From positions 72,958 to 136,957 of the forward strand of contig CAZFJX010000002.1 in assembly GCA_964519505.1 (NCBI GenBank): a DNA stretch of 64,000 bases, written 5' to 3'. The position numbers and the translations under genes were made by a program. The stretch is from an uncultured Desulfurococcales archaeon (GTDB lineage Archaea; Thermoproteota; Thermoprotei_A; Sulfolobales; CAZFJX01). The notes under the pieces were generated by a model. It worked only from the letters and a program-made list of their open reading frames with translations, was not told the DNA's origin and did no database searches. Each line of letters opens with the position of its first letter. Within the stretch, counting starts at the first letter, position 1. Of the stretch, positions 3,382-63,247 are shown piece after piece.

Positions 3382-3842
3382 TCCTTACAGAAATTACAAG
3401 GGCAGACCCTACCCTCTTTTTTAACCATTGGTATCCCGTGAGGGCATTCTAGAGGCTTGCCCATTTTCTCCCATAACTCCATTATAACTGTATAAGGTAC
3501 TTTGTTCTGTATCCTTGAAGCAATGCAACATGCTTCATTGGGTGTTAGGCCAGCCTTAACAAATATATGTTCTAGAATCCCGTGAGCATGTATTAACATG
3601 CGCGCTAAAACACATCCATTACCAGTTAACGTTACGTAACCGCGTTTAACCACACATGTTAATCCTCTCTTGGCTAATTTCCTAACCATTATGGATACTG
3701 TCGGTAGGGCTAAGTTTAGGTGCTTTGATAGGTCACTAATCTTGATAGGTCTGGAGTCACCCCCTAACTCAAAAATCGCTAGTATGTACTTCATCTCGCA
3801 ATCAGATAATTCAGTTATTCCTAGTGAGGACTCAGCCTTCAT
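3378..3842 (-). CDS. DtxR/MntR-family metal-dependent transcriptional repressor
   Basis: N-terminal wHTH (ISDLSKHLNLALPTVSIMVRKLAKRGL) followed by a dimerisation/metal-binding region with His and Cys ligands. Last gene of the metal ABC transporter operon, overlapping the permease gene by 1 nt. Confidence 0.8.
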   Translation of the reverse strand: MKAESSLGITELSDCEMKYILAIFELGGDSRPIKISDLSKHLNLALPTVSIMVRKLAKRGLTCVVKRGYVTLTGNGCVLARMLIHAHGILEHIFVKAGLTPNEACCIASRIQNKVPYTVIMELWEKMGKPLECPHGIPMVKKEGRVCPCNFCKD

Positions 3843-4660
3843 TACCTCTTCACCTTAAGCAATTCACTAAGTATTAGTGTTGCTGCTGCGAAAATACCTA
3901 ACCCACCACTTGGTGGTAGATAAGCTATGTAAGCAAGTATGTATCCCCCAAGGGCGATTGCTAAAGCTATAAATATAGATAGATGCATATACTTCCTCCT
4001 AGATAGTTGTAAGGCGAGAGCCCCAGGCGCTGCGATAGTTATGTGGGCAGCTATTATGCCTATGGTCATTGTAAGAGTTATGGCTAATATGGCTATGACT
4101 GTATAAAGTACATACCTATAGAGTCTAACATTGAGGCCCATAGATCTAGCTCCTAACTCATCAAACGCTATGTATATAATCTCCCTCCTAAACAGCAGTA
4201 CTAATGCTCCGACAACCGCTGAGGCTGCGATTAATAAGCTTATGTCTGAAAGAGTGATTATCGATGAAGTACCAACGACTAAAGACCACGCCTGAGCAAT
4301 AGCTATACTTGATTTGGTAGCTACAAAATAGCTAAGCACCACGGTGATTGCTGAAGATATGGCTATCATGACGCTAGCAGCAGTATCAGGAGGGTACCCA
4401 CGCTCAACTAATTCAGCAGTGAGTATGGCCACTAATATCACGTATATTAAGGCAACATGAATCATAGGAACCGAAACACCGCATACGTAATATAGATAAA
4501 CAGCTAGTACTCCCCCAGCTAAGACGTTATGAATCATTGAAAGCCCTGTAAGCAATGTTTTAGCTAATGTGAGTAACGGACTAGATATACCGACTAAGAC
4601 ACCGCTTAGTAATGATGCTATTAAAACCCTTAATAAGAGAGGATCAACCATGATCCTCAC
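3842..4660 (-). CDS. ABC-3 family (Mn/Zn/Fe chelate type) transporter permease
   Basis: 272-aa polytopic membrane protein in an operon with the ATPase and a cluster-9-type binding protein. Overlaps the ATPase gene by 17 nt. Confidence 0.8.
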   Translation of the reverse strand: MRIMVDPLLLRVLIASLLSGVLVGISSPLLTLAKTLLTGLSMIHNVLAGGVLAVYLYYVCGVSVPMIHVALIYVILVAILTAELVERGYPPDTAASVMIAISSAITVVLSYFVATKSSIAIAQAWSLVVGTSSIITLSDISLLIAASAVVGALVLLFRREIIYIAFDELGARSMGLNVRLYRYVLYTVIAILAITLTMTIGIIAAHITIAAPGALALQLSRRKYMHLSIFIALAIALGGYILAYIAYLPPSGGLGIFAAATLILSELLKVKR

Positions 4661-5417
4661 CGAGAACTATAAGGTTCTTGAACTCTACAGTTCCTGGATA
4701 AACCTTCCTAAGGATTTCCGGCCTTAGCACCTCATGAGCCTTACCGACCGCATATACCCTCTTATTAAGCAGTATTACTAACGGCTCAAAGGGTATACAG
4801 GGACTTACCTCATGAGCCACCATTAAGATATCTATCCCTATCTCGGTATAAAGCTTATATAGTAGTTCAGCTAATTCACACTTCATGTGGAAATCAAGCA
4901 TGGAGAATGGTTCATCAAGAAGAAGCAATTTAGGTCTCCTAACCAATGCTCTAGCTATCATTACCCTCTGCTTTAACCCACCACTAAGTTCACTAAATAA
5001 GCATTCCTTACATTGCTCGATCTCAAGCATCTTGAGCACTTTATCGACATATTCGTAATCCTCCTTTAAAGGTATCCTAGGCGCTTTTCTAGAGCTTAGT
5101 AAGCCCATCATAACAATATCCTTAACCAATAGGGGTATGGACTCATCAACCTGTATGAGTTGCGGTACGTAACTAACCAGTTTAGATATTTGACCTTTAT
5201 CACGGTGCGGTACGTAGCCATAGACCTCAATATACCCTTTAGTAGGTTTAAGTAACCCGGCAATAACCTTAAGTAAGGTGGTTTTACCTGCACCATTAGG
5301 TCCCATAACTATTGCATAAAAAGGTGACTTAAGTTCTAGACTTATATCCTCTAACGCCCTTATCTTAGAATTAAAAATTACTGAGACCTCCTTTAATTTT
5401 AAATTATTACCCCTCAT
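4644..5417 (-). CDS. ABC transporter ATP-binding protein (metal import type)
   Basis: Walker A GPNGAGKTT, signature LSGGLKQR, Walker B LLLLDEP. Confidence 0.88.
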   Translation of the reverse strand: MRGNNLKLKEVSVIFNSKIRALEDISLELKSPFYAIVMGPNGAGKTTLLKVIAGLLKPTKGYIEVYGYVPHRDKGQISKLVSYVPQLIQVDESIPLLVKDIVMMGLLSSRKAPRIPLKEDYEYVDKVLKMLEIEQCKECLFSELSGGLKQRVMIARALVRRPKLLLLDEPFSMLDFHMKCELAELLYKLYTEIGIDILMVAHEVSPCIPFEPLVILLNKRVYAVGKAHEVLRPEILRKVYPGTVEFKNLIVLGEDHG

Positions 5418-5421
5418 TTAA

Positions 5422-6435
5422 TCACCTATGGGTAATTCTAATTATTAATGTAGCTAGTACTGTAAGGAGTACTATGTTACTTATTGCTAGGGCCAATGTT
5501 AGTTCTGTAAGGTCTTGCTGAGGAACTATATTTAACTCGGTATGTAAGGTGCATTTAGGAATCTCAGTAAGTAATCCAAGTACTACGTCATAAGGGTCTT
5601 CTCCCGTAACATTAATTACTACGTACGTTATACCGCTCTCTTCTAGAAATGAAGTGATTTTAGGGTTATGGTTCAAATCAGCATCAGTTAATAAAACGCA
5701 ATCTATTTCTCCCTTACGATATAAGTCCTTCACGTGATTAAGTTTAGCTAGTGAAGGTTCAACACCTAACTCAGGCACTATAATAGTAATGGTACTTATG
5801 TTTAAGTCATGAACAACGTACTGAAGTATAGGTGAGTATAAAGCTACCCTTAAACCACCATACTTTTTTGCACCGTAAACGTAGATTCTTGTGAGCGTAT
5901 CTAGGTATTTCATAGACTTAGCCTTCACCACACTTAACTTACTGTAATTAATTTTCATCAATGAATCCATGAACGTTAATAATACGGCCCTAACACCACT
6001 CAAGGAGAAGAAGAATCCATGATAATTAATTGAGTTATCAACCTTTAGGGGCCTTAATCCGTGAAGTACGTAGTCTTGAAAACCTAGTACTGTAGCGTTA
6101 ACTAAACCCTCAGACCTCAACTTAAAAATGCGTTCTTCAGTAACTGTATGCTTAGGACCTGAAGTAATGACTATGTCAGCCCTTCTCAAATATTTAGTAA
6201 GTTCCCTTAGTGGTACTTCATATTTATGAGGATCAACCCCCGGAGGCACTATATTTTCAACGGCTATTCCCTCATCAATTACAGATTCAATTATATCATG
6301 CATGGGCTTTATAGTCGTGATCACTAATATTTCCGTCTTGGCTGAATCGGCAAGCATAATATTCGATATACTTAACAACATCATAATCATCAGCATTACT
6401 AGGCATAATTTACTGAGGCACACATCCATGACCAT
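5422..6435 (-). CDS. Metal (Mn/Zn) ABC transporter substrate-binding protein, TroA/ZnuA-like, with C-terminal membrane anchor
   Basis: N-terminal signal-like hydrophobic segment, a DPH-containing metal-site string (PPGVDPHKYE) and a C-terminal hydrophobic span. First gene of the operon. Confidence 0.7.
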   Translation of the reverse strand: MVMDVCLSKLCLVMLMIMMLLSISNIMLADSAKTEILVITTIKPMHDIIESVIDEGIAVENIVPPGVDPHKYEVPLRELTKYLRRADIVITSGPKHTVTEERIFKLRSEGLVNATVLGFQDYVLHGLRPLKVDNSINYHGFFFSLSGVRAVLLTFMDSLMKINYSKLSVVKAKSMKYLDTLTRIYVYGAKKYGGLRVALYSPILQYVVHDLNISTITIIVPELGVEPSLAKLNHVKDLYRKGEIDCVLLTDADLNHNPKITSFLEESGITYVVINVTGEDPYDVVLGLLTEIPKCTLHTELNIVPQQDLTELTLALAISNIVLLTVLATLIIRITHR

Positions 6436-6477
6436 TAAATAACGCTTTAGGGGGTTTAAATTTTTATTGCGTAAAAA

Positions 6478-8817
6478 TTACGAAGAAGATTCGTAGTAGT
6501 AACATATATCGCCAACATTTACGGCATAATAGTGCTTATTACCTTCCTTATTATCCGTTACATGCAATATGGGTCTTTCAAATAATTTAGATAGCTTAAC
6601 TAAATCATTAAATGAACTAATCTTCAACTTACTTGTTACGTTATCTAAACTCTCAACATTAACTATTATATCGCCATACTCACGCATTATCCTCTCATGC
6701 TCACTTAACTTTACTCCCTTCATGAATAGCTTATAGTATATCAGAAAGAATAATAATGCAGAGGACATTAGAATAGCGTATGAGATATTTCTTAAAGACT
6801 TTACATCAGTGTTTATTAAGTTAAATAATTCTACCTTATTGCTTACTTCTTTAAAGCTTATCGGGTTAGATGATGATTTAGACCTTAGATTGTGGAATTT
6901 AATTATGTTATTAGAATAGCTCATTTCAATAGTTGCTTGTGGTGTAAATGTCTTTTCAATAGAGCCTCCTGACTTTCTAGGTATGTAGGACTTAATCACG
7001 GGTTTTATGGTGATAACGTATGAAGGTGCCGAAATGCCTGTCTCCTTCCTTATCTGGGTGATTAGTGACTTAACTTCGCTAATATTTAATCTCAGTACTT
7101 CATATATCCTTGATTCATTAAAGATCTTCTTAGGTACGTGTATGACGTCCTTACTCCATTCACCAGGCTCTTCAAGGGTTACGTAGATTTCGTAGTAACC
7201 ATGTATAGGTCCCTCAGGGTTCGAGCTTATACTTATATTCATAAATATCACTAGTTCTTCAGTAAGCGTGAGGTATATCTTATCTAGATTACTTACTGTG
7301 GTTTTATTATAAACTATGTTTGGTTTTAGTAGAGCACTATATGAGTAATCAGCCATCAGTGTATATGAATAGTCTTTATAGATAGGTTCCTTTACGGTAA
7401 GTGGTAAAGCATGTGTATATACCGTAAAGAGTGAGGATAATATGAGCAAAACTGCAGCCGACAGTACCACTGTGAGTTTTACTAATTTCTTTCTAGATAA
7501 ACTAATGCTCTTCTTCCCTGATTTCATACTTTTACTCAATTTACTTAACCTACTTTTCTTTCTAGTATTATGCTTTACAGATTTACTCAGCACTATATAA
7601 GTTACTATGGAAGAAAATACTATAAATGAGGCAAATCCGGTAGGTGTTGTTAAGTAATTAATTAAAGCACCTGTAAATACCCAGAAATGCATCGTTAAGA
7701 GACCTAAGTAAGGTACTATAGCTATAACCTTACCCATAAGGTTCTTCTCAGTTGCCATTACCGGGTCTACATCGGTATTATTGTCACCTTTGGTTACGTA
7801 ATATTTAACCCCATTTATCTCACGGATATCTACGACTCTATGGACGTATGGGTATTGAGGTCCCATGACCTGTATTATGTCATTTACATGTATGTCTGAG
7901 GTATGCATATTTAAGCTACTCACGACTATTAAGTCTCCAACATTTATGGTAGGTCTCATACTGCCACTAACGACAACTGAAATCTTAATGCCGAAGAATC
8001 CTGTTATGAATAGTATCAATATTGAGACAATGGCTACGTAAGTAAATAACTTTATTTCACTCTTACCTATAGTCCTTTTATCGTAAGGATTGCTTAACTC
8101 ATTTATTGTAATGAGTACCGCCATGGGTAAGATTACGCTAGTTAATGAATCATAATACCAGGGTATGTTAGGCATTAATGGCGTTAAATAATAGTAAATG
8201 GTATAGGGTAATAAGAAAAAGACACTTAAGATAGGTCCTCCTAATATAACTATATATGTCAGTAACACGTTTTTAGCTAATAATGGTAATAGCCTAGAAC
8301 TTAGGTACTTAGCCAGTAAGGTTGAATCAGCTATGGCAGTTAATGAGTTAGGATTTAGCTGAATTAATGTAAATATAGATGCTACTACTAAGATTGTTAA
8401 GGGTACGTTTCTCCTTAAGAATCCCTTAAAACCTAAATACTTAATTAAGAAACCCCTAGCGAACTCCATGCCAACTAATGCGGGTAAGGCTCTACCCATG
8501 TTAATTAAGAAACCCTTTAATGATCTATCATAAGGACTTAAACCGGTACCAAGGAAGTAAGCTACTACTATATCCCCTATTATCATGATAGCTGAGGCAG
8601 CTATAGCTGCTAGGTATATATGATTACTTATAGGACTTGTCTTTAGGTGATTTAAGGTCATTAGGACTATAAATCCCCATATGATTGATACTAAGATATA
8701 AGTAAGTGGGTAAGGTATGACAGGTGTGTAAAGAATTATGTGAGTTAGTGCCACGAGTATGAATACGAGAATAAGGAGTCTATTCATGGTTTTCCTATAT
8801 TTTACGTCATGAGGCAT
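6478..8817 (-). CDS. Fusion protein: polytopic membrane domain + archaeal/ER-type (SipW-like) signal peptidase I + bitopic C-terminal domain
   Basis: 779 aa. S26 motifs lie mid-protein (VVSGSMRPTINVGDLIVV, YVHRVVD, TKGDNN). At least 7 hydrophobic spans precede the peptidase. After it come a Lys/Ser-rich linker, a TM span, about 230 aa of soluble region, another TM span and a tail. Directly downstream of two SipW-substrate-like genes. Confidence 0.75.
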   Translation of the reverse strand: MPHDVKYRKTMNRLLILVFILVALTHIILYTPVIPYPLTYILVSIIWGFIVLMTLNHLKTSPISNHIYLAAIAASAIMIIGDIVVAYFLGTGLSPYDRSLKGFLINMGRALPALVGMEFARGFLIKYLGFKGFLRRNVPLTILVVASIFTLIQLNPNSLTAIADSTLLAKYLSSRLLPLLAKNVLLTYIVILGGPILSVFFLLPYTIYYYLTPLMPNIPWYYDSLTSVILPMAVLITINELSNPYDKRTIGKSEIKLFTYVAIVSILILFITGFFGIKISVVVSGSMRPTINVGDLIVVSSLNMHTSDIHVNDIIQVMGPQYPYVHRVVDIREINGVKYYVTKGDNNTDVDPVMATEKNLMGKVIAIVPYLGLLTMHFWVFTGALINYLTTPTGFASFIVFSSIVTYIVLSKSVKHNTRKKSRLSKLSKSMKSGKKSISLSRKKLVKLTVVLSAAVLLILSSLFTVYTHALPLTVKEPIYKDYSYTLMADYSYSALLKPNIVYNKTTVSNLDKIYLTLTEELVIFMNISISSNPEGPIHGYYEIYVTLEEPGEWSKDVIHVPKKIFNESRIYEVLRLNISEVKSLITQIRKETGISAPSYVITIKPVIKSYIPRKSGGSIEKTFTPQATIEMSYSNNIIKFHNLRSKSSSNPISFKEVSNKVELFNLINTDVKSLRNISYAILMSSALLFFLIYYKLFMKGVKLSEHERIMREYGDIIVNVESLDNVTSKLKISSFNDLVKLSKLFERPILHVTDNKEGNKHYYAVNVGDICYYYESSS

Positions 8818-8913
8818 GATTTACCACGGTCATATCAATTATATAGGGAGGGGTTTTCACCCCTAAAAATGGGGTTTTACTCTTACTTTTGATTTAATAT
8901 TGCCTTAGCCAAG

Positions 8914-9573
8914 TTACCGAGGTAAGAGTTCCTCATACTCATTCCACTGTACAGCCTCGAACGATATTGTTAAGGTCAATGTAGTGTTTTGAGGTGCACC
9001 TTGGAGCACTGTTATATCAAAGCTTATATCAGCTGAGTGGCAAGGTTCCAACTGTGTACCGAAGTTATCGCCCCACCACAGCAGTATATCAGGTATCCCA
9101 TCCCCACTAAGATCAATCTCTATACCCTGCTGTAATACCTGTTCATTTAGCTCGTAATATTCTTCACCATTTATTATGACTCTCCATATCTTTATCGGTA
9201 TAGTACCTGTGTTATGTACCTTGAAAGCTATATGTTCATAGTACCAAGGATACACGTTTATTAGAGTCACTATCATGACTTCATTATCCCCATCGCCATC
9301 AAAGTCACGTAGAACTACTTCGGTGCACCCAACATCTTTATCTAATTGAGTAGATCCTGGTTCCGGTAATAGCGATGCGTTGTAATCATTGACTGAGTAT
9401 AAGCAGCTATCTAAGTGTATTACAGTACCATTAACGAACTCCCAATCAACTATGCCAGTAACTACTTCGGCATTCATCCTAAGGACTTCAGACCACATAG
9501 CGTATGATGCCGAAATTATTACGGCAATCATGAACAGTGTTAATGGGATTGTTATTAATTTCTTAGACCTCAT
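8914..9573 (-). CDS. Secreted TasA/camelysin-like (AbpA-like) fibre subunit candidate, paralogue 1
   Basis: MRSKK + hydrophobic span + SASYA/MWSEVLRMNAEVVTGIVDWE, which has the layout of a SipW-dependent signal. Shares NVYPWY, NTGTIPIK and C-terminal VQWNE motifs with the neighbouring gene product. Confidence 0.65.
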   Translation of the reverse strand: MRSKKLITIPLTLFMIAVIISASYAMWSEVLRMNAEVVTGIVDWEFVNGTVIHLDSCLYSVNDYNASLLPEPGSTQLDKDVGCTEVVLRDFDGDGDNEVMIVTLINVYPWYYEHIAFKVHNTGTIPIKIWRVIINGEEYYELNEQVLQQGIEIDLSGDGIPDILLWWGDNFGTQLEPCHSADISFDITVLQGAPQNTTLTLTISFEAVQWNEYEELLPR

Positions 9574-9595
9574 GAACAGTCACCAAAATCTTTAG

Positions 9596-10192
9596 TTACT
9601 CAACCTCATTCCACTGAGCGAATGTTAGCTGTAGTTCAAACGTATATGTATGGTTCTCAAGAGCTTCTTGCAGCACATGAATCACTAACATATACGTATC
9701 GTTATAACCAGGGTCTATCTGGGAACCGTCACCTCCATCCTCATAAAGCTTTAGAAGTACCTCGATATCTGAGAGGTTATCATTATTTAGATCTAGCTGG
9801 TACCATGTATCTAAGTCTATCTCCTTCTCTGTAGCATCGTATATTATCTTAGCACTCTCACGCTTGACTGGTATAGTGCCTATGTTATCCACAACACCGA
9901 AGATGGCTACCTTATAACATGGGTAGGCATTATTAATTTCTACCTTTAGCTTAATTACTTCACTATCCTCATACTCTTCTTCAGTTATGTTTACCGTCGT
10001 TACATCTAGATCGGGTTTCTCATAGGTGTCGTTATGCCAGTAATCACTCCACTCAACGTCCACCTCACCGGTAACTACTATGATGTTGATCCTTAAGGTC
10101 TCTGACCACATAGCAAAGGCAGCACCAACTACTGTCGCTAATATTAGGAATGTTGCGGCTAATAGCACGGACTTCTGTAGTCTACTTGCCAT
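9596..10192 (-). CDS. Secreted TasA/camelysin-like (AbpA-like) fibre subunit candidate, paralogue 2
   Basis: GAAFA/MWSETLRINIIVVTGEVDVE plus NAYPCY, NIGTIPVK and AQWNE. The ORF track starts at 10216. I prefer the internal ATG at 10192 (MASRLQKS...) because it gives a normal n-region/h-region signal and sits about 40 nt from a TTATATA box. Confidence 0.65.
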   Translation of the reverse strand: MASRLQKSVLLAATFLILATVVGAAFAMWSETLRINIIVVTGEVDVEWSDYWHNDTYEKPDLDVTTVNITEEEYEDSEVIKLKVEINNAYPCYKVAIFGVVDNIGTIPVKRESAKIIYDATEKEIDLDTWYQLDLNNDNLSDIEVLLKLYEDGGDGSQIDPGYNDTYMLVIHVLQEALENHTYTFELQLTFAQWNEVE

Positions 10193-10378
10193 ATATATTA
10201 CACCTGCAAGAATCAATAGCGTTAAGTACTATATAATACGTTGCGCATGATTCTTACCGCAATATCTCCCCTAAGAAAAGTTCATGAATTATTTACGGTA
10301 GTTAATAACGTGCAAGTTTTCTACACAAAAGTTATATACTGTCTAAGCAAGTCTAACAAAAACGTAGAGCTGTGTAGG

Positions 10379-11056
10379 TTGGGCGACGGAACTCGTAGCT
10401 ATAGGAGTAAGCTGGAGATTATAATCTCAATACTTAAGTCAATAGAGTCCTCAGGGATGTTAAAGAAAACGCATATACTCTACAGAGCTAATCTAAGTTC
10501 ATCACAACTCAATAAGTACTTAAACATGCTGATAGATAGCGGTACTGTAGCAAAAGTCAAAGAGAGTGATGGTGATTATTACATACTAACTGGGTTAGGT
10601 AGGCTACTTCTTTATGAAATAGAGAAAGCTATTGACGTACTTAACGTTAAGGATAAGGTGAGACCCCAGTTAGAGGACCTAATAGAAGGTATACTAAGGA
10701 AGAGGAGAATGAAGTATTTTAAGAATCATGTAATTAGAGGCGTGACCGGGCTTCAGCATTTCTTTAAGTTCATAATAGTAAATAAGGAGGGTGAGCAAGT
10801 AGCTATTGAGATCATTAAGGGTAATGAGTTAAGCATGTTTTATCAATTAATGAGCTTTTACCTTAGGGTTGCAGACAGTAAAGTTAGAGGCATTGTAATT
10901 GTTCCCGAAGACTTAGCCAGCACTATACAGTTAATAAAGAGGAACTTAATAGATGAAACAAAAGTTATTCTTGATGTAGTATTGTTCTTAAGTAAGGAGA
11001 GCTTCAAGTACGACCTAATTAACGTAATAGAACATAGAGGTTTTTATTTAAAATAA
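10379..11056 (+). CDS. Winged-helix (HTH_45-like) transcriptional regulator with uncharacterised C-terminal domain
   Basis: SKLEIIISILKSIESSGMLKKTHILYRANLSSSQLNKYLNMLIDSGTV is a typical archaeal wHTH. The ORF track starts at 10241, but a TTATATA box at 10332-10338 lies inside that extension, so the TTG at 10379 is more plausible. Divergent from the fibre genes. Confidence 0.5.
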   Translation: MGDGTRSYRSKLEIIISILKSIESSGMLKKTHILYRANLSSSQLNKYLNMLIDSGTVAKVKESDGDYYILTGLGRLLLYEIEKAIDVLNVKDKVRPQLEDLIEGILRKRRMKYFKNHVIRGVTGLQHFFKFIIVNKEGEQVAIEIIKGNELSMFYQLMSFYLRVADSKVRGIVIVPEDLASTIQLIKRNLIDETKVILDVVLFLSKESFKYDLINVIEHRGFYLK

Positions 11057-11093
11057 ATAACTTCATATCTTAAATTATTACTTAGGTGCCTTA

Positions 11094-12107
11094 ATGGTCA
11101 TAAGGCTTAATCTTAATGAGGTCCCTTACCCTCCTTCACCTAAGGTTATTGATGAGGTCAGTAAATTTATTAAAATAAGTAATAGGTATCCGCCTTTATC
11201 AATATATAGAAAGCTTAAGGAAGCTATAGCTACGTACAATGACGTAGAATCTGATAATGTCTTAATAGATGCTGGTGCAACAAACATACTGCATGCGGTT
11301 TTTGTTAGGGCTAAGAAACTAGGTGGTCGTATTATAACTTATAGGCCTACGTTCCCTTATCCTCTAGAATATGCTAAAAACATAGACATTCAAGTACGCT
11401 ATGTGGATTTAGACCATGAATTTAAGTTAAATATCGAGGATATTTTACAGCTAAATCCTAAGGAAAGTGATGTAATTATGATCATAAATCCTAACAATCC
11501 TACAGGCAACATAGTGCTAGGATCTAGTAACTACATGAAGGAGCTATTGAGCTCAGGTGCTTTAGTAATTCATGACGAGGTTTACTTTGAATTTAGCGGC
11601 TTTACGTTTAAGGATCTAATTAGGAATTACGATAACCTAGTTATAGTTAGGTCTTTATCTAAGGCATTCGCATTAGCTGGGTTTAGGGTGGGGTATGCGT
11701 TGGGGTCTAGGGAGTTGATAAGTGAATTAAGGAATTACCAGCAATACTATCCAATACCGACGGTGAGTGCTATAGCAGGTATAACCGCATTAAGTGATTT
11801 AGACTATATGAAGTCCATAGTGAGTGAGGTAATTAAGGAGAGGGAATGGTTAATGAGCATGTTAAATGAGGTAGAAGGCATCATACCTTATGAGAGCCTA
11901 ACGAACTTCATCCTCATATCGCTTAAGGACATAGGGATTAAGGGGGAGGAGATGTTTAATTACCTTAAGCAGAACGGTGTTTATGTGTCTTACTATCCTC
12001 ATGAGCCTAGATTAACGTACTGTATAAGGGTGTCCATAGGACTTCGTGAAGAGAATGAGATATTCATAAAGCTATTAAAGAGCTACGTAGGTAGGTTAAG
12101 AGGTTAG
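11094..12107 (+). CDS. Class I/II aminotransferase, histidinol-phosphate aminotransferase-like
   Basis: PLP-lysine region SLSKAFALAGFRVGY and NPNNPTG motif; 337 aa. Confidence 0.75.
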   Translation: MVIRLNLNEVPYPPSPKVIDEVSKFIKISNRYPPLSIYRKLKEAIATYNDVESDNVLIDAGATNILHAVFVRAKKLGGRIITYRPTFPYPLEYAKNIDIQVRYVDLDHEFKLNIEDILQLNPKESDVIMIINPNNPTGNIVLGSSNYMKELLSSGALVIHDEVYFEFSGFTFKDLIRNYDNLVIVRSLSKAFALAGFRVGYALGSRELISELRNYQQYYPIPTVSAIAGITALSDLDYMKSIVSEVIKEREWLMSMLNEVEGIIPYESLTNFILISLKDIGIKGEEMFNYLKQNGVYVSYYPHEPRLTYCIRVSIGLREENEIFIKLLKSYVGRLRG

Positions 12108-12114
12108 TTAAGTT

Positions 12115-12489
12115 TCACAACTTTATTCCGTATTCACTTAATATCTTCTTTATAAGTTCTTTCCCTATGGCTAAGTCCTTAGTAGTCAATGTATTTATAG
12201 CAGGGCATTCTTCATCAAAAGTAAATCCTAAACCCTCAACGTAGATCACTGGGTAAGCTCTACATCCTAAAGGTCTGTAACGATATATAGTGCATTTTCC
12301 TTTATCGTTAAGGAATACGCATTTCCCATTGATGTTCCTTAATCTCCAGAAAAATCCATCGAAGTACGTGAATTCATCTTTACTGAATCCAAGTGCTTCT
12401 AACTTAGCTATGTCTGAGGGGGCCAATATCATTTCCGTATTTAAGCAGCATTTAAAGCAGTTCTTAGGACATAAAGGCTTAACGTACAT
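12115..12489 (-). CDS. YkgJ-family cysteine-cluster (Zn/Fe-chelating) protein
   Basis: N-terminal CPKNCFKCC (CxxxCxxCC) plus downstream Cys residues; 124 aa. Confidence 0.65.
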   Translation of the reverse strand: MYVKPLCPKNCFKCCLNTEMILAPSDIAKLEALGFSKDEFTYFDGFFWRLRNINGKCVFLNDKGKCTIYRYRPLGCRAYPVIYVEGLGFTFDEECPAINTLTTKDLAIGKELIKKILSEYGIKL

Positions 12490-12509
12490 TTACCTATAAA
12501 CCAGACTAC

Positions 12510-13424
12510 TTAAAGTTCGGGGTAGAAGTACCTACAGGCACAAGCCTTATCTCTGATACATTTAGATATTGATATCTCAGCAATACTACTACCTATATCT
12601 ATTAACTTATCAATGGCTTGAGCTAACTCCTTAGGTACTTCATCTTCCTCGCTAACGGGCTTTATCTCAAGCAACTTGAGCGCCCTATCTATATCGCTCA
12701 ATGTAAATGATGATAAAGCACTATTGACGTATTCTAGAGTTTTAAACACAGCGTTATTCTCTTTATAGCACTTAAACATACCCAAATTACTTGAGAGTAC
12801 ATCAAAGAGTTCCCTAATGAGTTTGAGGAATAGAAGCATATCAAGCATATCCAAAGTCTCTATCCCACGGCTTAGCACAGCATGTTTCTTACATAGCCTT
12901 AAACCTAGGTTAAATAGCTTCTCAACTTCCTGACTTACTAAGCCAACACCGCATTCTTCCTCAGTAGCTTCGTAAATACTCTCTATGAGTCCTTTAATTA
13001 TGTTAGTGATTTTCTTTATGACATCCTCAGGCTTCGCCGCTATATCTAGGAATACTATCTCATGGTATTTAGACTCAGGCCTACCGAATGCCGTTATAGG
13101 AACTGCCTTACTTAATATTGATGTAAGTTCAGTAAATTCTTCGTAACTACACTTAACCTTAACTTTGGTTATACCCTCAGTATAGCAGGCAATTAACTTC
13201 CTTATAGCAGACTTGAATTTCCTGCCCTCAGCAACAACTGATAATTGAAGAGGCTCTAATTCCTGCTTACCTCTAGGCTCTATAGATATTGTGTTACCGT
13301 CGAAGAACATATCAACTAAGCTACCGACGTCTATACCTAATTGCATGGCCCACTTCTTAGGGATCGTGACAGCGAGGGACTTCAGACCTATCTTCATTAT
13401 TCTCCTCGTATCATGCTCAACCAA
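12510..13424 (-). CDS. AbrB/SpoVT-domain + PhoU-like domain regulator
   Basis: N-terminal swapped-hairpin AbrB string (LAVTIPKKWAMQLGIDVGSLVDMFFDGNTISIEP) followed by about 200 aa of helical PhoU-like repeat. Confidence 0.65.
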   Translation of the reverse strand: MVEHDTRRIMKIGLKSLAVTIPKKWAMQLGIDVGSLVDMFFDGNTISIEPRGKQELEPLQLSVVAEGRKFKSAIRKLIACYTEGITKVKVKCSYEEFTELTSILSKAVPITAFGRPESKYHEIVFLDIAAKPEDVIKKITNIIKGLIESIYEATEEECGVGLVSQEVEKLFNLGLRLCKKHAVLSRGIETLDMLDMLLFLKLIRELFDVLSSNLGMFKCYKENNAVFKTLEYVNSALSSFTLSDIDRALKLLEIKPVSEEDEVPKELAQAIDKLIDIGSSIAEISISKCIRDKACACRYFYPEL

Positions 13425-34214: not shown

Positions 34215-36101
34215 TTACTCAGGAAGCAGGCCCTCCTCCTCAAGTAAGTCAGCTACCCACTTAAGCCCTAACTCCTCAAGCTTCTCCCTAGTTGGCCTAC
34301 CCTCCTTCCATCCACGTAGCTTATAGTACTCATCAAGCATTTCGTGGAGCCTTACTACATGGCCCTTGCTTGGTCCCTCGGGCATTGGCTCCTCTAGTAA
34401 CCTCTTAGGTAGGGTGTCGTAAGCCCTACCATCACCGAAGGCTAAAACGTTAAATGCTCTTTCAGCCGTGTATATCCTTTCACCTATCTTCTCAATCTCT
34501 GCGGGTGTGATTTCCCAGCCTGTTATTGATGTTAATGCATCAGCGAAGTCATCAACCCATATAGCGAATGTTGAGAACTTACATATCACCATGCTATCAA
34601 CAACAGCGGATACGTCCTGGAAGTACTTAACCATCTTTGGCTTACCCTCAGTAGCGAACCTGTCTACTAGTTGCGGCACACCTAATACCTCAGGGCTAAT
34701 CATGTATGCTCTTAAGTGACACCCACCTCTATTGCTGGTTGCGTAGGCTAGGCCGTGGCCTTGAGCGCCTCTTGGGTCGTAGGCAGGTAACTCCTGACCC
34801 CTAACCACCATAGCAACCTCAGGGGCTCCATACTTCTCAGCTAATCTCTTGGCACCCTCAGCTAATTCGTCGCCAATACCCGACCTATAAGCGGTCCTCC
34901 ATGTTAACTCAACTATTGCCTCAGCAGAGCCCCAACCAACTCTTAAACCACGTAGCTTCTCAGCAGGTATCTTACCCTTCTCAATAAGCTCGAAGAACGT
35001 TCCTATAACGTGACCCATGCTAATCGTGTCTAAACCTAACTCATTACATAAGAAGTTAGCCTTAGCAATGGCCTCTAAGTTATCAACACCTGTCTGTGAG
35101 CCAAAGGCCCAGATGGTCTCATACTCAGGGCCTCCGCCCTCACCAGTCCATGGTGGTGTGGTCACCTTAGTGTATCTGGCACAGCCTACCGGACAGCCCC
35201 AACAGGCTTCTTCACGTACCTTCTCTTTAATTAGTATGGTTTCAGCCATTCTTTCTCCACTAATCTTCTCGGCGCCTGGAAAGACACCTGTCTGGAAGTT
35301 CCTTGTTGGGAATATGCCATGCCTATTGATTATGTTGACTAAGACTGCAGTGCCGTAAGCAGGTAATGCTTGACTCGTTACTGGACTCTTCTTTATCTTA
35401 TCCATAGCCTTAGCGATAGCCGACCTAAATAGATCCTCCTTAGCAGGCTTAGGCTTCTGAGTACCCCTAACAGCTATAGCCTTAAGCCTCTTAGAACCTA
35501 AAACAGCTCCATGACCGCCCCTGCCAGCCGCCCTATTCTTATCGTTGAGTATAGCAGCAAACCTAACTAGGTTCTCACCTGCAGGTCCTATACAAGCTAC
35601 CTTAATGTTCCTAGCATCGTCACCTATCTCAGCCTTCATCTCCTCAATAATCATGTCGGTAGTCGCATGTACGTCCTTTCCCCATAGGTGCTTTGCATCC
35701 CTTAACTCAGCCTTACCGTTATAGATCCATAACCATACAGGCTTCTCAGCGGCGCCCTCAACGATTATGGCGTCAAAACCAGCGAACTTTAGCTCAGGAC
35801 CCCACTTACCACCGCTTTGTGAGTCATGTATGGTACCGCTCAATGGGCTCTTAGTTACTGAGCACCAACGGCCGCTCATTGGGTAACCAGTACCTGTTAC
35901 GGGACCTGTCAGTAGGATTATCTTGTTCTCAGGGCTTAAGGGGTCAACCTTCGGGTTTAGCTCCTTAAGTAGTAGGTAAACACCTAGACCTCTACCGCCA
36001 ATCCAGTTTCTTAAGACCTTCTCAGGAGGGGTTTCGATGTAGAGCTTCTCCTTAAATAGGTCAACTCTTAGGATTTTACCTGTATAACCGCCTAAAGGCA
36101 T
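34215..36101 (-). CDS. aor: Tungsten-containing aldehyde:ferredoxin oxidoreductase
   Basis: 628 aa with AOR-family N-terminus (GYTGKILRVDL), a 4Fe-4S Cys pattern (CWGCPVGC...C) and pterin-binding strings. GC is higher than in neighbouring genes. Confidence 0.93.
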   Translation of the reverse strand: MPLGGYTGKILRVDLFKEKLYIETPPEKVLRNWIGGRGLGVYLLLKELNPKVDPLSPENKIILLTGPVTGTGYPMSGRWCSVTKSPLSGTIHDSQSGGKWGPELKFAGFDAIIVEGAAEKPVWLWIYNGKAELRDAKHLWGKDVHATTDMIIEEMKAEIGDDARNIKVACIGPAGENLVRFAAILNDKNRAAGRGGHGAVLGSKRLKAIAVRGTQKPKPAKEDLFRSAIAKAMDKIKKSPVTSQALPAYGTAVLVNIINRHGIFPTRNFQTGVFPGAEKISGERMAETILIKEKVREEACWGCPVGCARYTKVTTPPWTGEGGGPEYETIWAFGSQTGVDNLEAIAKANFLCNELGLDTISMGHVIGTFFELIEKGKIPAEKLRGLRVGWGSAEAIVELTWRTAYRSGIGDELAEGAKRLAEKYGAPEVAMVVRGQELPAYDPRGAQGHGLAYATSNRGGCHLRAYMISPEVLGVPQLVDRFATEGKPKMVKYFQDVSAVVDSMVICKFSTFAIWVDDFADALTSITGWEITPAEIEKIGERIYTAERAFNVLAFGDGRAYDTLPKRLLEEPMPEGPSKGHVVRLHEMLDEYYKLRGWKEGRPTREKLEELGLKWVADLLEEEGLLPE

Positions 36102-63078: not shown

Positions 63079-63188
63079 TAATGATTAAATGGCGCCGGGG
63101 GCGGGATTCGAACCCGCGCACCCCATAAGGGGTAGTGGGTCTCTCCTCCCTAATGCCGGAGCTCGAGCCCACCGCCTTGGGCCGCTCG
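63079..63188 (-). tRNA. tRNA-Ser (anticodon CGA) with 21-nt intron at 37/38 and genomically encoded CCA
   Basis: Hand-folded cloverleaf: acceptor GCCGGGG/CCCCGGC, 3-bp D stem, anticodon stem GUGGG/CCCAC with loop CU-CGA-G[intron 63130-63150]A, long variable arm (CCCC-UUAU-GGGG), T arm GCGGG-UUCGAAU-CCCGC, discriminator G and CCA. Confidence 0.92.
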
Positions 63189-63247
63189 GCCACCCCGGCT
63201 CCATTTTCTCTCTAACGCTTCAGAATTCTAAAGCTTATCTACTAGCT

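What the first reader, a model, noticed from the sequence alone, without database searches (positions are those of the whole stretch)
6478..10216. Putative TasA/AbpA-type surface-fibre module: two tandem SipW-substrate-like paralogues plus a dedicated signal peptidase
The products of 8914-9573 and 9596-10216 (minus strand) are clear paralogues. Each has a short basic N-terminus and one hydrophobic span, followed by the near-identical string A-[YF]-A-M-W-S-E-x-L-R-[MI]-N-x-x-V-V-T-G-x-V-D-x-E. Both later carry N-x-Y-P-x-Y and N-x-G-T-I-P-[IV]-K, and both end with Q-W-N-E. The layout of a small-x-small cleavage site, then aromatic-Ser-acidic, then a G-x-[LV]-D strand, is that of SipW-dependent proteins such as Bacillus TasA and camelysin. 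Directly downstream on the same strand is an S26 peptidase of the archaeal/ER (SipW-like) type, with SGSM, HRV and GDNN motifs. This reproduces the tapA-sipW-tasA operon logic. TasA-like AbpA is known to build donor-strand-exchanged bundling pili in Pyrobaculum calidifontis. Two tandem paralogues suggest a major/minor subunit pair or a heteropolymer. The locus is probably unannotated as a fibre system in this lineage.
Basis: partly seen in the sequence, partly recalled or inferred. Interest (0 to 1): 0.78.

Follow-up and report, generated by a model that had tools for sequence, protein, structure and literature searches.

The report
AbpX-type archaeal biofilm fibre gene cluster
This is a real gene cluster for a secreted, probably calcium-dependent protein fibre of the TasA/AbpX biofilm-matrix family in a hot-vent archaeon, complete with its own signal-cutting enzyme, but the same kind of cluster was described in a January 2026 preprint, so it is a new member rather than a new kind.

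Summary
ORFs 9596-10216 (P_B) and 8914-9573 (P_A), both on the minus strand, are paralogues (31% identity, E=5e-21) with the stated motifs. An ER/archaeal-type S26 peptidase gene follows on the same strand.

The window matches the MAG Desulfurococcales archaeon ex4484_42, where these genes are annotated only as hypothetical. The closest characterised relative is Pyrodictium abyssi AbpX, not AbpA (family profile vs PDB 9SJ2, E=1.4e-15). AbpX is a TasA-superfamily fibril that polymerises by calcium-dependent donor-strand complementation.

P_B is the orthologue of the preprint's major AbpX pilin: 45% identical to Zestosphaera A0A2R7Y7S4. P_A is the orthologue of its minor filament component: 61% identical to A0A2R7Y7T0.

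The "peptidase" is a 779-aa fusion of three modules:
- a conserved ~9-TM module of unknown function
- an S26 domain
- the DUF5305 accessory protein

The last two are separate genes in 38 of 39 comparable loci. A wHTH regulator gene is a fifth conserved component.

Linkage is near-universal: 40 of 41 loci with enough sequence carry the peptidase gene intact.

The link to TasA itself is weak but above controls. Foldseek was inconclusive. Fibre formation is inferred, not shown.

Verdict: correct interpretation, new member of a known kind, modest interest.

The parts
9596..10216 (-). P_B: AbpX-type major pilin precursor. It is 206 aa from TTG 10216, or more likely 198 aa from ATG 10192. Signal peptide is residues 1-35, with predicted cleavage at A-F-A|M. 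The mature protein is 171 aa.
   Evidence: - Homology and orthology: 100% identical to OYT44471.1, annotated hypothetical. 45% identical to Zestosphaera A0A2R7Y7S4, the preprint's major AbpX. 21 of its top 25 BLAST hits are first-position genes.
- PDB: phmmer vs AbpX 9SJ2 gives E=7.9e-5; the family profile gives 1.4e-15.
- Model: AF2 pLDDT 87.6, all-beta core.
- Composition: mature pI 4.05, 21.6% Asp+Glu.
10067..10111 (-). P_B predicted N-terminal donor strand, mature residues M1-G15 (MWSETLRINIIVVTG).
   Evidence: - It aligns residue for residue with the AbpX donor strand W2-S3-E4...L6...T14-G15.
- It has the same alternating pattern: W2, E4, L6, I8, I10, V12, against AbpX W2, E4, L6, L8, A10, I12.
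- It is modelled as unstructured coil in the AF2 monomer (residues 38-53), as reported for the AbpX monomer.
8914..9573 (-). P_A: AbpX-like minor filament subunit precursor, 219 aa. Signal peptide is residues 1-25, with predicted cleavage at S-Y-A|M. The mature protein is 194 aa.
   Evidence: [quoted passage not shown] All of its top 25 BLAST hits are second-position genes.
- Calcium ligands: it keeps the AbpX ligands D18, D46, D48 and E52 (DGDGDNE vs DSDQGNE).
- Model: AF2 pLDDT 85.5, pTM 0.81, N-terminal 18 residues coil.
- Composition: pI 4.05, 16.5% Asp+Glu.
- Weak FG-GAP hits on the DFDGDGDNE loop.
9454..9498 (-). P_A predicted N-terminal donor strand, mature residues M1-G15 (MWSEVLRMNAEVVTG).
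   Evidence: It shows the same W2/E4/L6/M8/A10/V12 pattern. It is coil in the AF2 monomer model.
8053..8817 (-). N-terminal multi-TM module of the 779-aa ORF (residues 1-255, about 8 spans). Function unknown.
   Evidence: - It precedes the S26 domain in every cluster-linked peptidase gene, including the bacterial locus L063.
- E118 is invariant, and R121, G86, G90 and G92 are nearly invariant.
- It has no Pfam or PDB match.
- Spans were counted from family-averaged hydropathy.
7576..8052 (-). S26 signal peptidase I domain (residues 256-414): a TM anchor, the extracellular catalytic domain with S(GSM), H(RV) and (G)D(NN), and a C-terminal TM.
   Evidence: - TIGR02228 archaeal SPase I, E=4.3e-20, above cutoff; NF046067 SipW, E=8.9e-16, below cutoff.
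- Pfam Peptidase_S26, E=1.1e-6.
- Best PDB hit is human SEC11A 7P2P, E=1.3e-10, with the catalytic motifs aligned.
7477..7575 (-). Basic cytoplasmic linker joining the peptidase to DUF5305. The wider 412-447 stretch has 15 Lys/Arg and no Asp/Glu.
   Evidence: The composition is. The linker corresponds to the basic N-terminus of free-standing DUF5305 proteins, for example L001 MFVQLKLKKLRKH....
6478..7476 (-). DUF5305 module (residues 448-779): TM, predicted extracellular domain, TM, then a cytoplasmic C-terminal domain. It is the putative peptidase accessory subunit, here fused to the peptidase.
   Evidence: - PF17231, E=1.3e-11, above cutoff.
- It is a separate gene in 38 of 39 comparable loci and fused only in L003.
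- The role is as proposed in the preprint.
- The fused 779-aa product is seen on 4 contigs from several sources.
10241..11056 (+). Divergently transcribed winged-helix (HTH_45 / Sso10a-like) putative regulator. The real start is probably about 40-50 codons downstream of TTG 10241.
   Evidence: - HTH_45, E=3.4e-18; NF053610 Sso10a family, E=1.1e-17.
- Homologues lie next to the cluster in more than 40 of 63 loci, usually directly upstream of pilin-1. The homology begins at residue ~43-53.
10193..10240 (.). Short divergent intergenic region with A/T-rich TATA-like boxes (ATTATATAG on the minus strand), and an AGGTG 8 nt upstream of ATG 10192.
   Evidence: This is read directly from the sequence. 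Promoter function is inferred only.

Best explanation
This is an AbpX-type fibre (bundling-pilus / biomatrix) gene cluster of the TasA superfamily. Family membership is shown here; the steps below are inferred from the one characterised member.

Proposed mechanism:
1. Export. P_B (major subunit) and P_A (conserved minor subunit) are made as precursors with an N-terminal basic and hydrophobic signal, and are exported through Sec.
2. Processing. The dedicated membrane peptidase encoded next door cuts after the invariant small-x-Ala site. Its ER/archaeal-type Ser-His S26 domain faces outward.
3. Donor strand release. The cut frees a new N-terminus, M1-W2-S3-E4..., which is the start of a 15-residue amphipathic donor strand.
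4. Polymerisation. That strand inserts into the open groove of the incomplete beta-sandwich of the next subunit (donor-strand complementation). W2 acts as a clamp. E4, D18 and the acidic loop before the YP motif bind Ca2+ at the strand-groove interface. The result is chaperone-free, Ca2+-promoted growth of thin, very acidic fibrils that can bundle into a matrix.
5. Minor subunit. P_A has both a donor strand and the C-terminal QWNE strand, so it can be built into the fibre or can start or end it.
6. Accessory parts. In this genome the peptidase is fused to its DUF5305 accessory protein and carries a conserved ~9-TM module of unknown role. The divergent wHTH gene probably regulates the cluster.
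For: Shown here:
- Paralogy of P_A and P_B.
- The family profile hits the solved AbpX fibril 9SJ2 at E=1.4e-15 and sc-AbpX 9RHP at 3.3e-12, with nothing else significant. With a 140-sequence profile the AbpX hit is E=4e-24.
- Orthology to the preprint's major and minor subunits by UniProt accession.
- The donor strand is invariant across the family: -1 Ala, W+2 and TG. It matches the AbpX pattern W2/E4/L6/L8/A10/I12.
- Ca ligand D18 is kept in both proteins. D46, D48 and E52 are all kept in P_A. P_B keeps an acidic cluster at that site.
- Mature pI is 4.05 for both, with 16.5% and 21.6% Asp+Glu, against pI ~4.0 and ~15% reported for the family.
- Both AF2 models are confident all-beta folds with the first 16-18 mature residues disordered, as reported for the AbpX monomer.
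- The peptidase has the Ser, His and Asp motifs aligned with SEC11A and passes TIGR02228.
- The hydropathy and charge pattern is consistent with ten spans in the peptidase part, an outward-facing active site and a cytoplasmic fusion linker. The preprint reports ten TM helices.
- Synteny: the order pilin-1, pilin-2, optional tip, NTM-S26, DUF5305 recurs. 40 of 41 informative loci have the peptidase gene intact, 39 of 41 have DUF5305, and 60 of 63 have at least two pilin genes.

Link to TasA:
- Among 140 close relatives, the most frequently matched curated families are PF12389 camelysin/TasA (7 members), TIGR04088 SipW-dependent signal peptide (16) and TIGR04090 BsaA (6).
- The 140-sequence profile scores TasA at 13.8 bits, against at most 2.7 bits for 200 shuffles.
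- The TasA fibre 8AUR is rank 2 (probability 0.96) for the P_B model and rank 4 (probability 0.51) for the P_A model in Foldseek.
Against: - No polymer was modelled or observed. Donor-strand insertion, Ca2+ dependence, cleavage site and fibre formation are all inferred from one characterised homologue that is only about 26-28% identical.
- P_B, the presumed major subunit, has Ile where AbpX has the Ca ligand E52. Some family members have Lys at D18. AbpX E142 could not be mapped.
- The characterised P. abyssi locus is minimal, with no minor subunit and no DUF5305. The roles of P_A, DUF5305, the TM module and the regulator are therefore untested anywhere.
- The window has no tip or anchor gene.
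- The sequence comes from a metagenome-assembled genome, and there are no expression data.
Confidence: 0.8

Rival explanations
1. The two proteins are secreted or surface-retained calcium-binding beta-sandwich proteins that do not polymerise. They could be adhesins, S-layer-associated proteins, or camelysin-like proteases as the Pfam family name suggests. On this view the peptidase simply processes them.
For: - No polymer evidence was obtained here.
- The Foldseek hits are generic beta-sandwiches, such as CBM3, adaptin appendage and arrestin.
- Relatives weakly match 'Camelysin metallo-endopeptidase' PF12389.
- Integrin/FG-GAP-type Ca loops are present.
Against: - The invariant amphipathic N-terminal strand starts exactly at the cleavage site and is disordered in both monomer models. 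That is the hallmark of donor-strand polymers.
- The closest solved relative is a fibril.
- No metalloprotease motif was seen in either sequence.
- Later structural work treats TasA, the founding member of that Pfam family, as a donor-strand fibre (PMC9674648, listed).
Confidence: 0.1
2. P_B alone forms the fibre. P_A is not a structural subunit but a TapA-like nucleator or chaperone, or a membrane-proximal adaptor or terminator that works with the peptidase-DUF5305 machine.
For: - P_A's class is markedly better conserved than P_B's class: 55-66% against 40-50% identity across Desulfurococcales, and 61% against 45% within Zestosphaera. That pattern fits a partner of conserved machinery better than an exposed bulk subunit.
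- P_A has class-specific insertions and three conserved Cys.
- In Bacillus, TapA nucleates TasA by strand complementation (PMC10151520, title and abstract).
- P. abyssi AbpX polymerises without any such partner.
Against: - P_A keeps every fibre-subunit feature: donor strand, YP, NxGTIP and QWNE strands, and the full AbpX Ca loop.
- The preprint's AF3 models co-assemble the Zestosphaera orthologue into continuous fibrils.
- This rival refines the best explanation rather than replacing it.
Confidence: 0.25
3. The proteins are type IV pilin-like subunits with class III signal peptides. They would be cut by a prepilin peptidase before the hydrophobic segment, which would then form the filament core.
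For: - The N-terminal hydrophobic helix is modelled as a long helix (residues 2-37).
- Eight of 140 relatives weakly match the UpsA pilin model, best E=6.5e-4.
- The family profile gives a weak hit to an archaeal 'flagellin' chain, 8FK7, E=0.0037.
Against: - Conservation starts after the hydrophobic span, not before it. The -1 Ala and +2 Trp are invariant, while the N-terminal region is variable.
- The conserved neighbour is an S26 signal peptidase I, not a PibD-type aspartic peptidase.
- The solved AbpX chain begins at the WSETL motif.
Confidence: 0.03

Closest known systems
AbpX of Pyrodictium abyssi and the 'abpX loci' of Thermoproteota (bioRxiv 10.64898/2026.01.04.697558; PDB 9SJ2, 9RHP)
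   Same: - Significant sequence homology.
- The same mature N-terminus, x-W-S-E-T-L...T-G-x-[LV]-D.
- The same acidic composition and pI.
- Ca-ligand positions largely kept.
- A dedicated multi-TM signal peptidase I next door.
- DUF5305 accessory, minor subunit and transcription factor, as in the preprint's Zestosphaera, Ignisphaera and Desulfurococcus loci. P_B and P_A are direct orthologues of the subunit genes of the first two.
   Different: - Only about 26-28% identical to P. abyssi AbpX itself.
- The P. abyssi locus has only the pilin and the peptidase.
- Here the peptidase and DUF5305 are one 779-aa polypeptide. The preprint mentions such a fusion for a bacterium, Anaerolinea. Among the archaeal loci examined here it occurs only in this window and in L003.
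- There is no tip gene.
- P_B's subclade has an extra D-x-N-x-D-x-x-x-D loop insertion.
- P_B lacks the E52 ligand.
Bacillus subtilis TasA with the tapA-sipW-tasA operon (PDB 8AUR, 5OF1)
   Same: - Operon logic: a secreted fibre subunit plus a dedicated ER/archaeal-type signal peptidase.
- An aromatic residue at P2' of the cleavage site. TasA has A|A-F; here it is A|M-W.
- Shared strand motifs: NxG(S/T)(L/I)(A/P)(I/V)K, and the C-terminal (F/L)x(F/A)(E/x)A(T/x)QWN.
- Donor-strand assembly of TasA (PMC9674648).
   Different: - No Pfam PF12389 hit for either protein.
- hhalign probability is 1.6%.
- Foldseek gives E=8e-3 and 5.6e-2 with TM ~0.3.
- There is no TapA homologue.
- The peptidase has about ten TM helices plus DUF5305, instead of the small SipW.
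- Ca2+ sites at the strand-groove interface are an AbpX feature.
AbpA archaeal bundling pilus of Pyrobaculum calidifontis (PMC9245690)
   Same: An archaeal, signal-peptidase-I-processed, jelly-roll, donor-strand filament of the TasA superfamily, implicated in biofilm bundling.
   Different: - No detectable sequence similarity with the family profile at E<=10.
- Not among the top 50 Foldseek hits.
- The AbpA operon has no dedicated signal peptidase, and it encodes a TapA-like AbpB.
- It occurs in other orders (Thermoproteales, Thermofilales).
Haloarchaeal Tat-fimbriae / Tat-dependent bundling pili (TafE; PMC11821415, PMC12337348)
   Same: Strand-donation fibres of the TasA superfamily whose loci also contain DUF5305, according to the preprint.
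   Different: They are exported by the Tat pathway. The proteins here have Sec-type signals without a twin-arginine motif. This family was not compared directly here.

Membership tests
AbpX family (TasA superfamily clade) | Significant sequence homology to P. abyssi AbpX | tested here: met
   phmmer gives P_B E=7.9e-5 and P_A E=0.013. The family profile gives E=1.4e-15 over chain residues 2-138 of 163. The 140-sequence profile gives E=4e-24.
AbpX family (TasA superfamily clade) | [quoted passage not shown] | tested here: met
   Both proteins have M1-W2-S3-E4, with hydrophobic residues at positions 6, 8, 10 and 12. W is invariant across 35 sequences. The criterion is from the preprint.
AbpX family (TasA superfamily clade) | Low pI (~4) and ~15% Asp/Glu | tested here: met
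   Mature P_A has pI 4.05 and 16.5% Asp+Glu. Mature P_B has pI 4.05 and 21.6%.
AbpX family (TasA superfamily clade) | Calcium-coordinating residues D18, D46, D48, E52 (same protomer) and E142 | tested here: inconclusive
   P_A keeps D18, D46, D48 and E52. P_B has D18, E46, D48 and E50 but Ile at position 52. E142 lies beyond the alignable region. The AbpX sequence used was rebuilt from the printed alignments, residues 2-138.
AbpX family (TasA superfamily clade) | Adjacent dedicated signal peptidase I with about ten TM helices | tested here: met
   TIGR02228 scores above cutoff. Hydropathy and charge pattern are consistent with 9 spans before and 1 after the catalytic domain. Linkage holds in 40 of 41 loci.
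AbpX family (TasA superfamily clade) | DUF5305 accessory protein in the locus | tested here: met
   PF17231, E=1.3e-11, above cutoff; here it is fused to the peptidase. It is present in 39 of 41 loci.
AbpX family (TasA superfamily clade) | Jelly-roll fold completed by a neighbour's strand; Ca2+-triggered polymerisation into fibrils | not testable with these tools
TasA / camelysin family (Pfam PF12389, Peptidase_M73) | Match to the PF12389 profile | tested here: not met
   There is no hit at E<=1 for P_A or P_B. Only 7 of 140 close relatives match weakly, best E=2.9e-4.
TasA / camelysin family (Pfam PF12389, Peptidase_M73) | Detectable sequence or fold similarity to B. subtilis TasA | tested here: inconclusive
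   - The 140-sequence profile gives 13.8 bits, E=3e-4 among 202 targets, against at most 2.7 bits for 200 shuffles.
- The 35-sequence profile is not above the shuffles.
- hhalign probability is 1.6%.
- Foldseek 8AUR: probability 0.96, E=8e-3 for P_B; probability 0.51, E=5.6e-2 for P_A.
SipW-cognate signal peptide class (TIGR04088) | Match to the TIGR04088 model | tested here: not met
   There is no hit for P_A or P_B. Weak hits occur in 5 of 35 and 16 of 140 relatives, best E=5.2e-5.
AbpA bundling pilin family | Sequence or fold similarity to AbpA; operon with AbpB and no dedicated peptidase | tested here: not met
   There is no AbpA hit with the family profile at E<=10 or in the top 50 Foldseek hits. 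The operon content differs.
ER/archaeal-type S26 signal peptidase (SEC11 / SipW type) | Ser-His catalytic motifs (SGSM, HR, GDN) rather than the bacterial Ser-Lys type | tested here: met
   The alignment to human SEC11A has SGSM/SGSMEP, VHRV/VHRV and KGDNN/KGDNN in register, E=1.3e-10. TIGR02228 scores above cutoff. The SipW equivalog model scores 58 bits, below its 190-bit cutoff.

The most novel reading that the evidence does not exclude
The 779-aa protein may be more than a processing enzyme. It would be a dedicated fibre-assembly platform in which three things work together: the conserved ~9-TM module (invariant E-x-x-R, no known relatives), the outward-facing S26 site, and the DUF5305 extracellular domain. 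Together they would couple signal-peptide cleavage to strand insertion and hold the fibre base at the membrane. The unusually well conserved minor subunit P_A would be the membrane-proximal adaptor that docks on this platform. The natural fusion in this genome would then be direct genetic evidence that peptidase and DUF5305 act as one complex, analogous to the multi-subunit eukaryotic signal peptidase complex.
Probability: 0.15. Interest if true: 0.6.

Novelty: new member of a known kind. Interest (0 to 1): 0.33.

Why it matters
TasA-superfamily fibres are emerging as a matrix scaffold shared by bacterial and archaeal biofilms.

- This locus adds an uncultured Guaymas-type Desulfurococcales lineage to the AbpX clade.
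- It shows that the major/minor subunit pair is ancient and syntenic, not a local duplication.
- It provides a natural peptidase-DUF5305 fusion in an archaeon, which supports the idea that the two proteins work as one complex.
- The minor subunit is more conserved than the major one. A wHTH gene and an uncharacterised TM module with an invariant E-x-x-R travel with the cluster. These give concrete targets for experiments in cultured relatives (Ignisphaera aggregans, Desulfurococcus amylolyticus).
- None of this overturns current understanding. The annotation gain is to rename five 'hypothetical' genes.

Tried and rejected
- **First homologue search.** It timed out and was repeated successfully.
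- **Direct TasA comparison.** hhalign of the 35-sequence profile against single-sequence TasA aligned only the C-terminal strand, probability 1.6%.
- **Homologues of the 779-aa ORF.** The search returned only 5 hits, because hydrophobic words saturated the candidate list. It was useless for counting fusions. The loci were used instead.
- **N-terminal TM module.** It has no PDB or Pfam relative. A CPBP/Rce1-like reading suggested by the E-x-x-R motif was dropped, because only 1 of 22 members matches, at E=0.14.
- **Terminator after P_A.** A stem-loop between P_A and the peptidase gene looked like a terminator. It is no more stable than shuffled sequence (z=-0.76), so it was dropped.
- **Bacterial promoter/terminator scanner.** It was not used, because the organism is an archaeon.
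- **Type IV pilin reading.** Rejected on the position of conservation and on the neighbouring peptidase type.
- **GC-rich patch at 34-36 kb.** It was checked as a possible RNA gene or island. It is an ordinary aldehyde:ferredoxin oxidoreductase gene.

Full report
**1. Observation**

The ORF listing confirms three minus-strand ORFs at the stated coordinates: 9596-10216 (P_B, 206 aa), 8914-9573 (P_A, 219 aa) and 6478-8817 (779 aa). P_A and P_B are paralogues, with 31% identity and E=5e-21.

Each has a basic N-terminus and one hydrophobic span, then [AS]-[FY]-A|M-W-S-E-x-L-R-x-N-x-x-V-V-T-G-x-V-D-x-E. Later come N-x-Y-P-x-Y, N-x-G-T-I-P-[IV]-K and Q-W-N-E.

There are small corrections:
- P_A has S-Y-A, not A-Y-A.
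- QWNE is near the C-terminus rather than at it.
- P_B probably starts at ATG 10192, as in GenBank OYT44471.1. That ATG has an AGGTG 8 nt upstream.

The motifs are not chance. In a 35-member alignment the -1 Ala, +2 Trp, TG, YP, N.G..P and QWNE columns are invariant.

**2. Source**

P_B is 100% identical to a hypothetical protein of the MAG 'Desulfurococcales archaeon ex4484_42'. P_A and the 779-aa product are found on the same 150,931-bp contig class. None of them carries a functional name.

**3. What the two small proteins are**

Neither protein hits Pfam PF12389 (TasA/camelysin) or TIGR04088.

Against all PDB sequences, the best and only meaningful hit is AbpX of Pyrodictium abyssi:
- 9SJ2 by phmmer: E=7.9e-5 for P_B and 0.013 for P_A.
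- With the family profile: E=1.4e-15 for 9SJ2 and 3.3e-12 for self-complemented AbpX, 9RHP.

The paper describing AbpX is bioRxiv 10.64898/2026.01.04.697558. It reports the following:
- AbpX is a TasA-superfamily protein that polymerises without a chaperone by donor-strand complementation.
- Three Ca2+ ions sit at the strand-groove interface. The ligands are E4 of one protomer, D18, D46, D48 and E52 of the next, and E142 of a third.
- W2 acts as an aromatic clamp.

The same paper defines 'abpX loci' in Thermoproteota. They contain AbpX, an AbpX-like minor filament component, sometimes a tip protein, a dedicated ~10-TM signal peptidase I, a DUF5305 accessory protein (sometimes fused to the peptidase, as in Anaerolinea) and occasional transcription factors.

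**4. Orthology**

| Window protein | Zestosphaera tikiterensis | Ignisphaera aggregans |
|---|---|---|
| P_B | P0063 = A0A2R7Y7S4, the preprint's major AbpX; 45% identical | P0047 = E0SRZ6; 43% identical |
| P_A | P0166 = A0A2R7Y7T0, the preprint's minor filament component; 61% identical | P0160 = E0SRZ5; 66% identical |

Across 63 related loci fetched from species-representative genomes, all 25 of P_A's best BLAST hits are second-position genes, and 21 of P_B's best 25 are first-position genes. The pair is therefore an old, syntenic major/minor pair, not a recent duplication.

The minor class is the better conserved: 55-66% identity against 40-50%.

**5. Residue-level tests against AbpX**

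The AbpX sequence used here was rebuilt from the printed alignments, residues 2-138.
- Both paralogues have W2, E4 and hydrophobic residues at positions 6, 8, 10 and 12.
- Both keep D18.
- P_A keeps the whole D46-x-D48-x-x-N-E52 loop (DGDGDNE against DSDQGNE).
- P_B has an acidic cluster there (E, D, E) but Ile at position 52.
- E142 could not be mapped.

Both mature proteins have pI 4.05, with 16.5% and 21.6% Asp+Glu. The family is reported at pI ~4.0 and ~15%.

Both also carry integrin/FG-GAP-type D-x-[DNS]-x-D-[GN]-x-x-D loops. P_B's loop is an insertion confined to its own subclade.

**6. Structure**

| Model | pLDDT | pTM | Features |
|---|---|---|---|
| P_B, full length | 87.6 | 0.72 | signal helix 2-37, residues 38-53 coil, then ten strands |
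| P_A, mature | 85.5 | 0.81 | residues 1-18 coil, all-beta core |

This is the picture reported for the AbpX monomer.

**7. Link to TasA**

TasA's sequence, recalled from memory, was verified as identical to 8AUR_A.
- hhalign of the 35-sequence profile against it aligned only the C-terminal strand, probability 1.6%.
- An exhaustive profile search found 3,434 representatives at E<=1e-3 and 1,490 at E<=1e-10.
- Among 140 of the best hits, the most frequently matched curated families were PF12389 (7 members, best E=2.9e-4), TIGR04088 (16, best 5.2e-5) and TIGR04090 BsaA (6).
- A profile of those 140 scored TasA at 13.8 bits (E=3e-4 among 202 targets), against at most 2.7 bits for 200 shuffled TasA sequences. 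The alignment pairs NAYPxY...NxGTIPVK with NLKPGD...NNGSLAIK, and Q...A(V)QWNE with Q...ATQWNG.

The relation to TasA is thus weak but above controls. This agrees with the preprint's placement of AbpX as a clade separate from, but linked to, TasA.

**8. The 'peptidase'**

The 779-aa ORF has three modules:

| Residues | Module | Evidence |
|---|---|---|
| 1-255 | conserved multi-TM module | see section 11 |
| 256-414 | ER/archaeal-type S26 domain | TIGR02228 at 72 bits against a cutoff of 51.85; SipW model at 58 bits, below its cutoff; best PDB hit human SEC11A, E=1.3e-10, with SGSM, VHRV and KGDNN in register |
| ~448-779 | DUF5305 | PF17231, E=1.3e-11 |

Family-averaged hydropathy and the positive-inside rule are consistent with this topology:
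1. N-terminus inside, then nine spans.
2. The catalytic domain outside.
3. One span, then a cytoplasmic linker with 15 Lys/Arg and no acidic residue.
4. A span, the DUF5305 extracellular domain, another span, and a cytoplasmic C-terminal domain.

That is consistent with ten TM helices for the peptidase part, as the preprint reports, plus the two of DUF5305.

The linker corresponds to the basic N-terminus of free-standing DUF5305 proteins, so the fusion is topologically coherent. The fused product is seen on several independent contigs.

**9. Synteny**

The order pilin-1 (~185 aa), pilin-2 (~225 aa), optional third pilin-like or tip gene (200-470 aa; an SdrD_B domain in L025), NTM-S26 (~400 aa), DUF5305 (~345 aa) recurs across Desulfurococcales, Pyrodictiaceae and Acidilobaceae. 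It also recurs in two bacterial loci (Dehalococcoidia L062, Syntrophaceticus L063).

Of the 41 loci with at least 2.8 kb after the last pilin gene:
- 40 have the NTM-S26 gene intact. In the 41st, L008, it is split into two ORFs.
- 39 have DUF5305. The exceptions are two Acidilobaceae loci.
- Only L003 has the fused form.

The window's peptidase part is closer to the unfused L001 protein (37% identity) than to the fused L003 protein (28%). This hints that fusion or fission happened more than once.

The window has no third, tip-like gene. No other family member is found anywhere in the 64 kb.

**10. Regulator and operon layout**

The divergent ORF 10241-11056 is a winged-helix protein (HTH_45, E=3.4e-18; Sso10a family, E=1.1e-17). 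Homologues sit beside the cluster in more than 40 of 63 loci, usually just upstream of pilin-1.

The following layout is read from the sequence and is inference only:
- A TATA-like ATTATATAG lies about 40 nt upstream of ATG 10192.
- Only 22 nt, containing a GGTGA, separate P_B from P_A.
- A CTATATAA box lies about 28 nt upstream of the peptidase ATG.
- A T5 tract directly follows the peptidase stop, before a separately promoted ZnuABC-type operon.

A stem-loop after P_A is no better than shuffled sequence (z=-0.76).

**11. N-terminal TM module**

An alignment of 22 examples, including the bacterial one, shows an invariant E118, nearly invariant R121 (E-x-x-R at the cytoplasmic end of a span), a G-x-G-L-x-P-Y loop and a P-x-L-P motif. 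There is no PDB or Pfam relative. Its function is unknown. A CPBP/Rce1-like reading is unsupported, because only 1 of 22 members matches, at E=0.14.

**12. Mechanism proposed**

This section is inferred from AbpX and TasA, except where a call is cited.
1. The precursors are exported through Sec.
2. The dedicated S26 enzyme cuts at the invariant small-x-Ala|Met-Trp site.
3. The freed 15-residue amphipathic strand inserts into the groove of the next subunit.
4. Ca2+ is bound by E4, D18 and the acidic loop.
5. P_B forms the bulk of the fibre and P_A is a minor subunit.

An aromatic P2' residue is known to hinder cleavage of TasA by a generic bacterial peptidase (PMC10269814, abstract). This offers a rationale for a dedicated enzyme. 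In an archaeon, however, the housekeeping enzyme is of the same type, so the rationale is only suggestive.

**13. Comparison and novelty**

The locus passes every testable AbpX-family criterion except full conservation of the Ca ligands in P_B.
- It is not a Pfam-level TasA member.
- It is not an AbpA member. The AbpA operon lacks a dedicated peptidase.

The comparator should be AbpX, and the locus type has been in the literature since January 2026, with orthologous Desulfurococcales loci listed in its Table S3. This MAG is not listed there.

What is particular to this locus:
- the archaeal peptidase-DUF5305 fusion
- the missing tip gene
- the extra Ca-type loop in the major subunit

**14. Verdict**

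| Item | Assessment |
|---|---|
| Observation | confirmed |
| Interpretation | supported |
| Novelty | new member of a known kind |
| Interest | about 0.33 |

Confidence that this is an AbpX-family cluster is very high. Confidence that it makes donor-strand, Ca-dependent fibres is about 0.8.

Noticed in passing
window 8053-8817 (-); also L001-L063 peptidase genes: The first ~255 residues of every cluster-linked signal peptidase form a conserved multi-TM module. It has an invariant Glu (E118) and a nearly invariant Arg (R121) in an E-x-x-R motif, a GxGLxPY loop and a PxLP motif. It has no Pfam or PDB relative. Its function is unknown, and it is conserved between archaea and a bacterial locus (L063).
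   Followed up: partly
window 10241-11056 (+): Homologues of the winged-helix (HTH_45 / Sso10a-like) gene lie beside the fibre cluster in more than 40 of 63 loci. Homology starts at residue ~43-53, so the annotated-style TTG start is probably too far upstream. The C-terminal half has only a weak PD-(D/E)XK-like hit (E=0.078).
   Followed up: partly
window 8914-9573 vs 9596-10216: The 'minor' subunit class (P_A) is much better conserved across Desulfurococcales than the 'major' class (P_B): 55-66% against 40-50% identity. P_A's class also has three conserved Cys (LDxC, VGCT, xPC) and a WWGDNFG motif.
   Followed up: partly
L025:9323-10714, L020:1724-3115, L029:2762-4153, L033:9308-10696: In some related loci a third gene encodes a ~463-aa protein with an AbpX-like N-terminal domain followed by an SdrD_B-type adhesin repeat. 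This is probably the tip adhesin. The window has no such gene.
   Followed up: partly
L008:5486-5872, L015:4648-5040, L019:5567-5953, L021:4348-4752, L028:4473-4877, L034:563-967 (all minus strand): A small (128-134 aa) S26-like ORF lies about 2.5 kb upstream of the fibre cluster on the opposite strand in six loci. It may be the housekeeping signal peptidase. It is not present near the cluster in the window.
   Followed up: no
L062 (Dehalococcoidia) 6067-7752 and 7992-8729; L063 (Syntrophaceticus) 8013-12571: Bacterial loci carry the same pilin family. In L063 they also carry the same NTM-S26 and DUF5305 genes. This is in line with the cross-domain distribution and possible horizontal transfer noted in the preprint.
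   Followed up: no
window 3842-6435 (-): A ZnuA/ABC ATPase/permease metal-uptake operon lies directly downstream on the same strand. It is separated from the fibre cluster by a T5 tract and an A/T-rich box, so it is probably a separate transcription unit.
   Followed up: partly
window 63093-63199 (-): Rfam finds a 107-nt tRNA match covering the whole model (44.3 bits), but ARAGORN reports none. It is most likely an intron-containing archaeal tRNA.
   Followed up: no
window 34215-36101 (-): The local GC peak (0.47 against ~0.39) is an aldehyde:ferredoxin oxidoreductase gene (AFOR_N and AFOR_C, E=2e-156). It is flanked by a radical-SAM/SPASM gene and a class II aldolase gene. This is ordinary.
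   Followed up: yes
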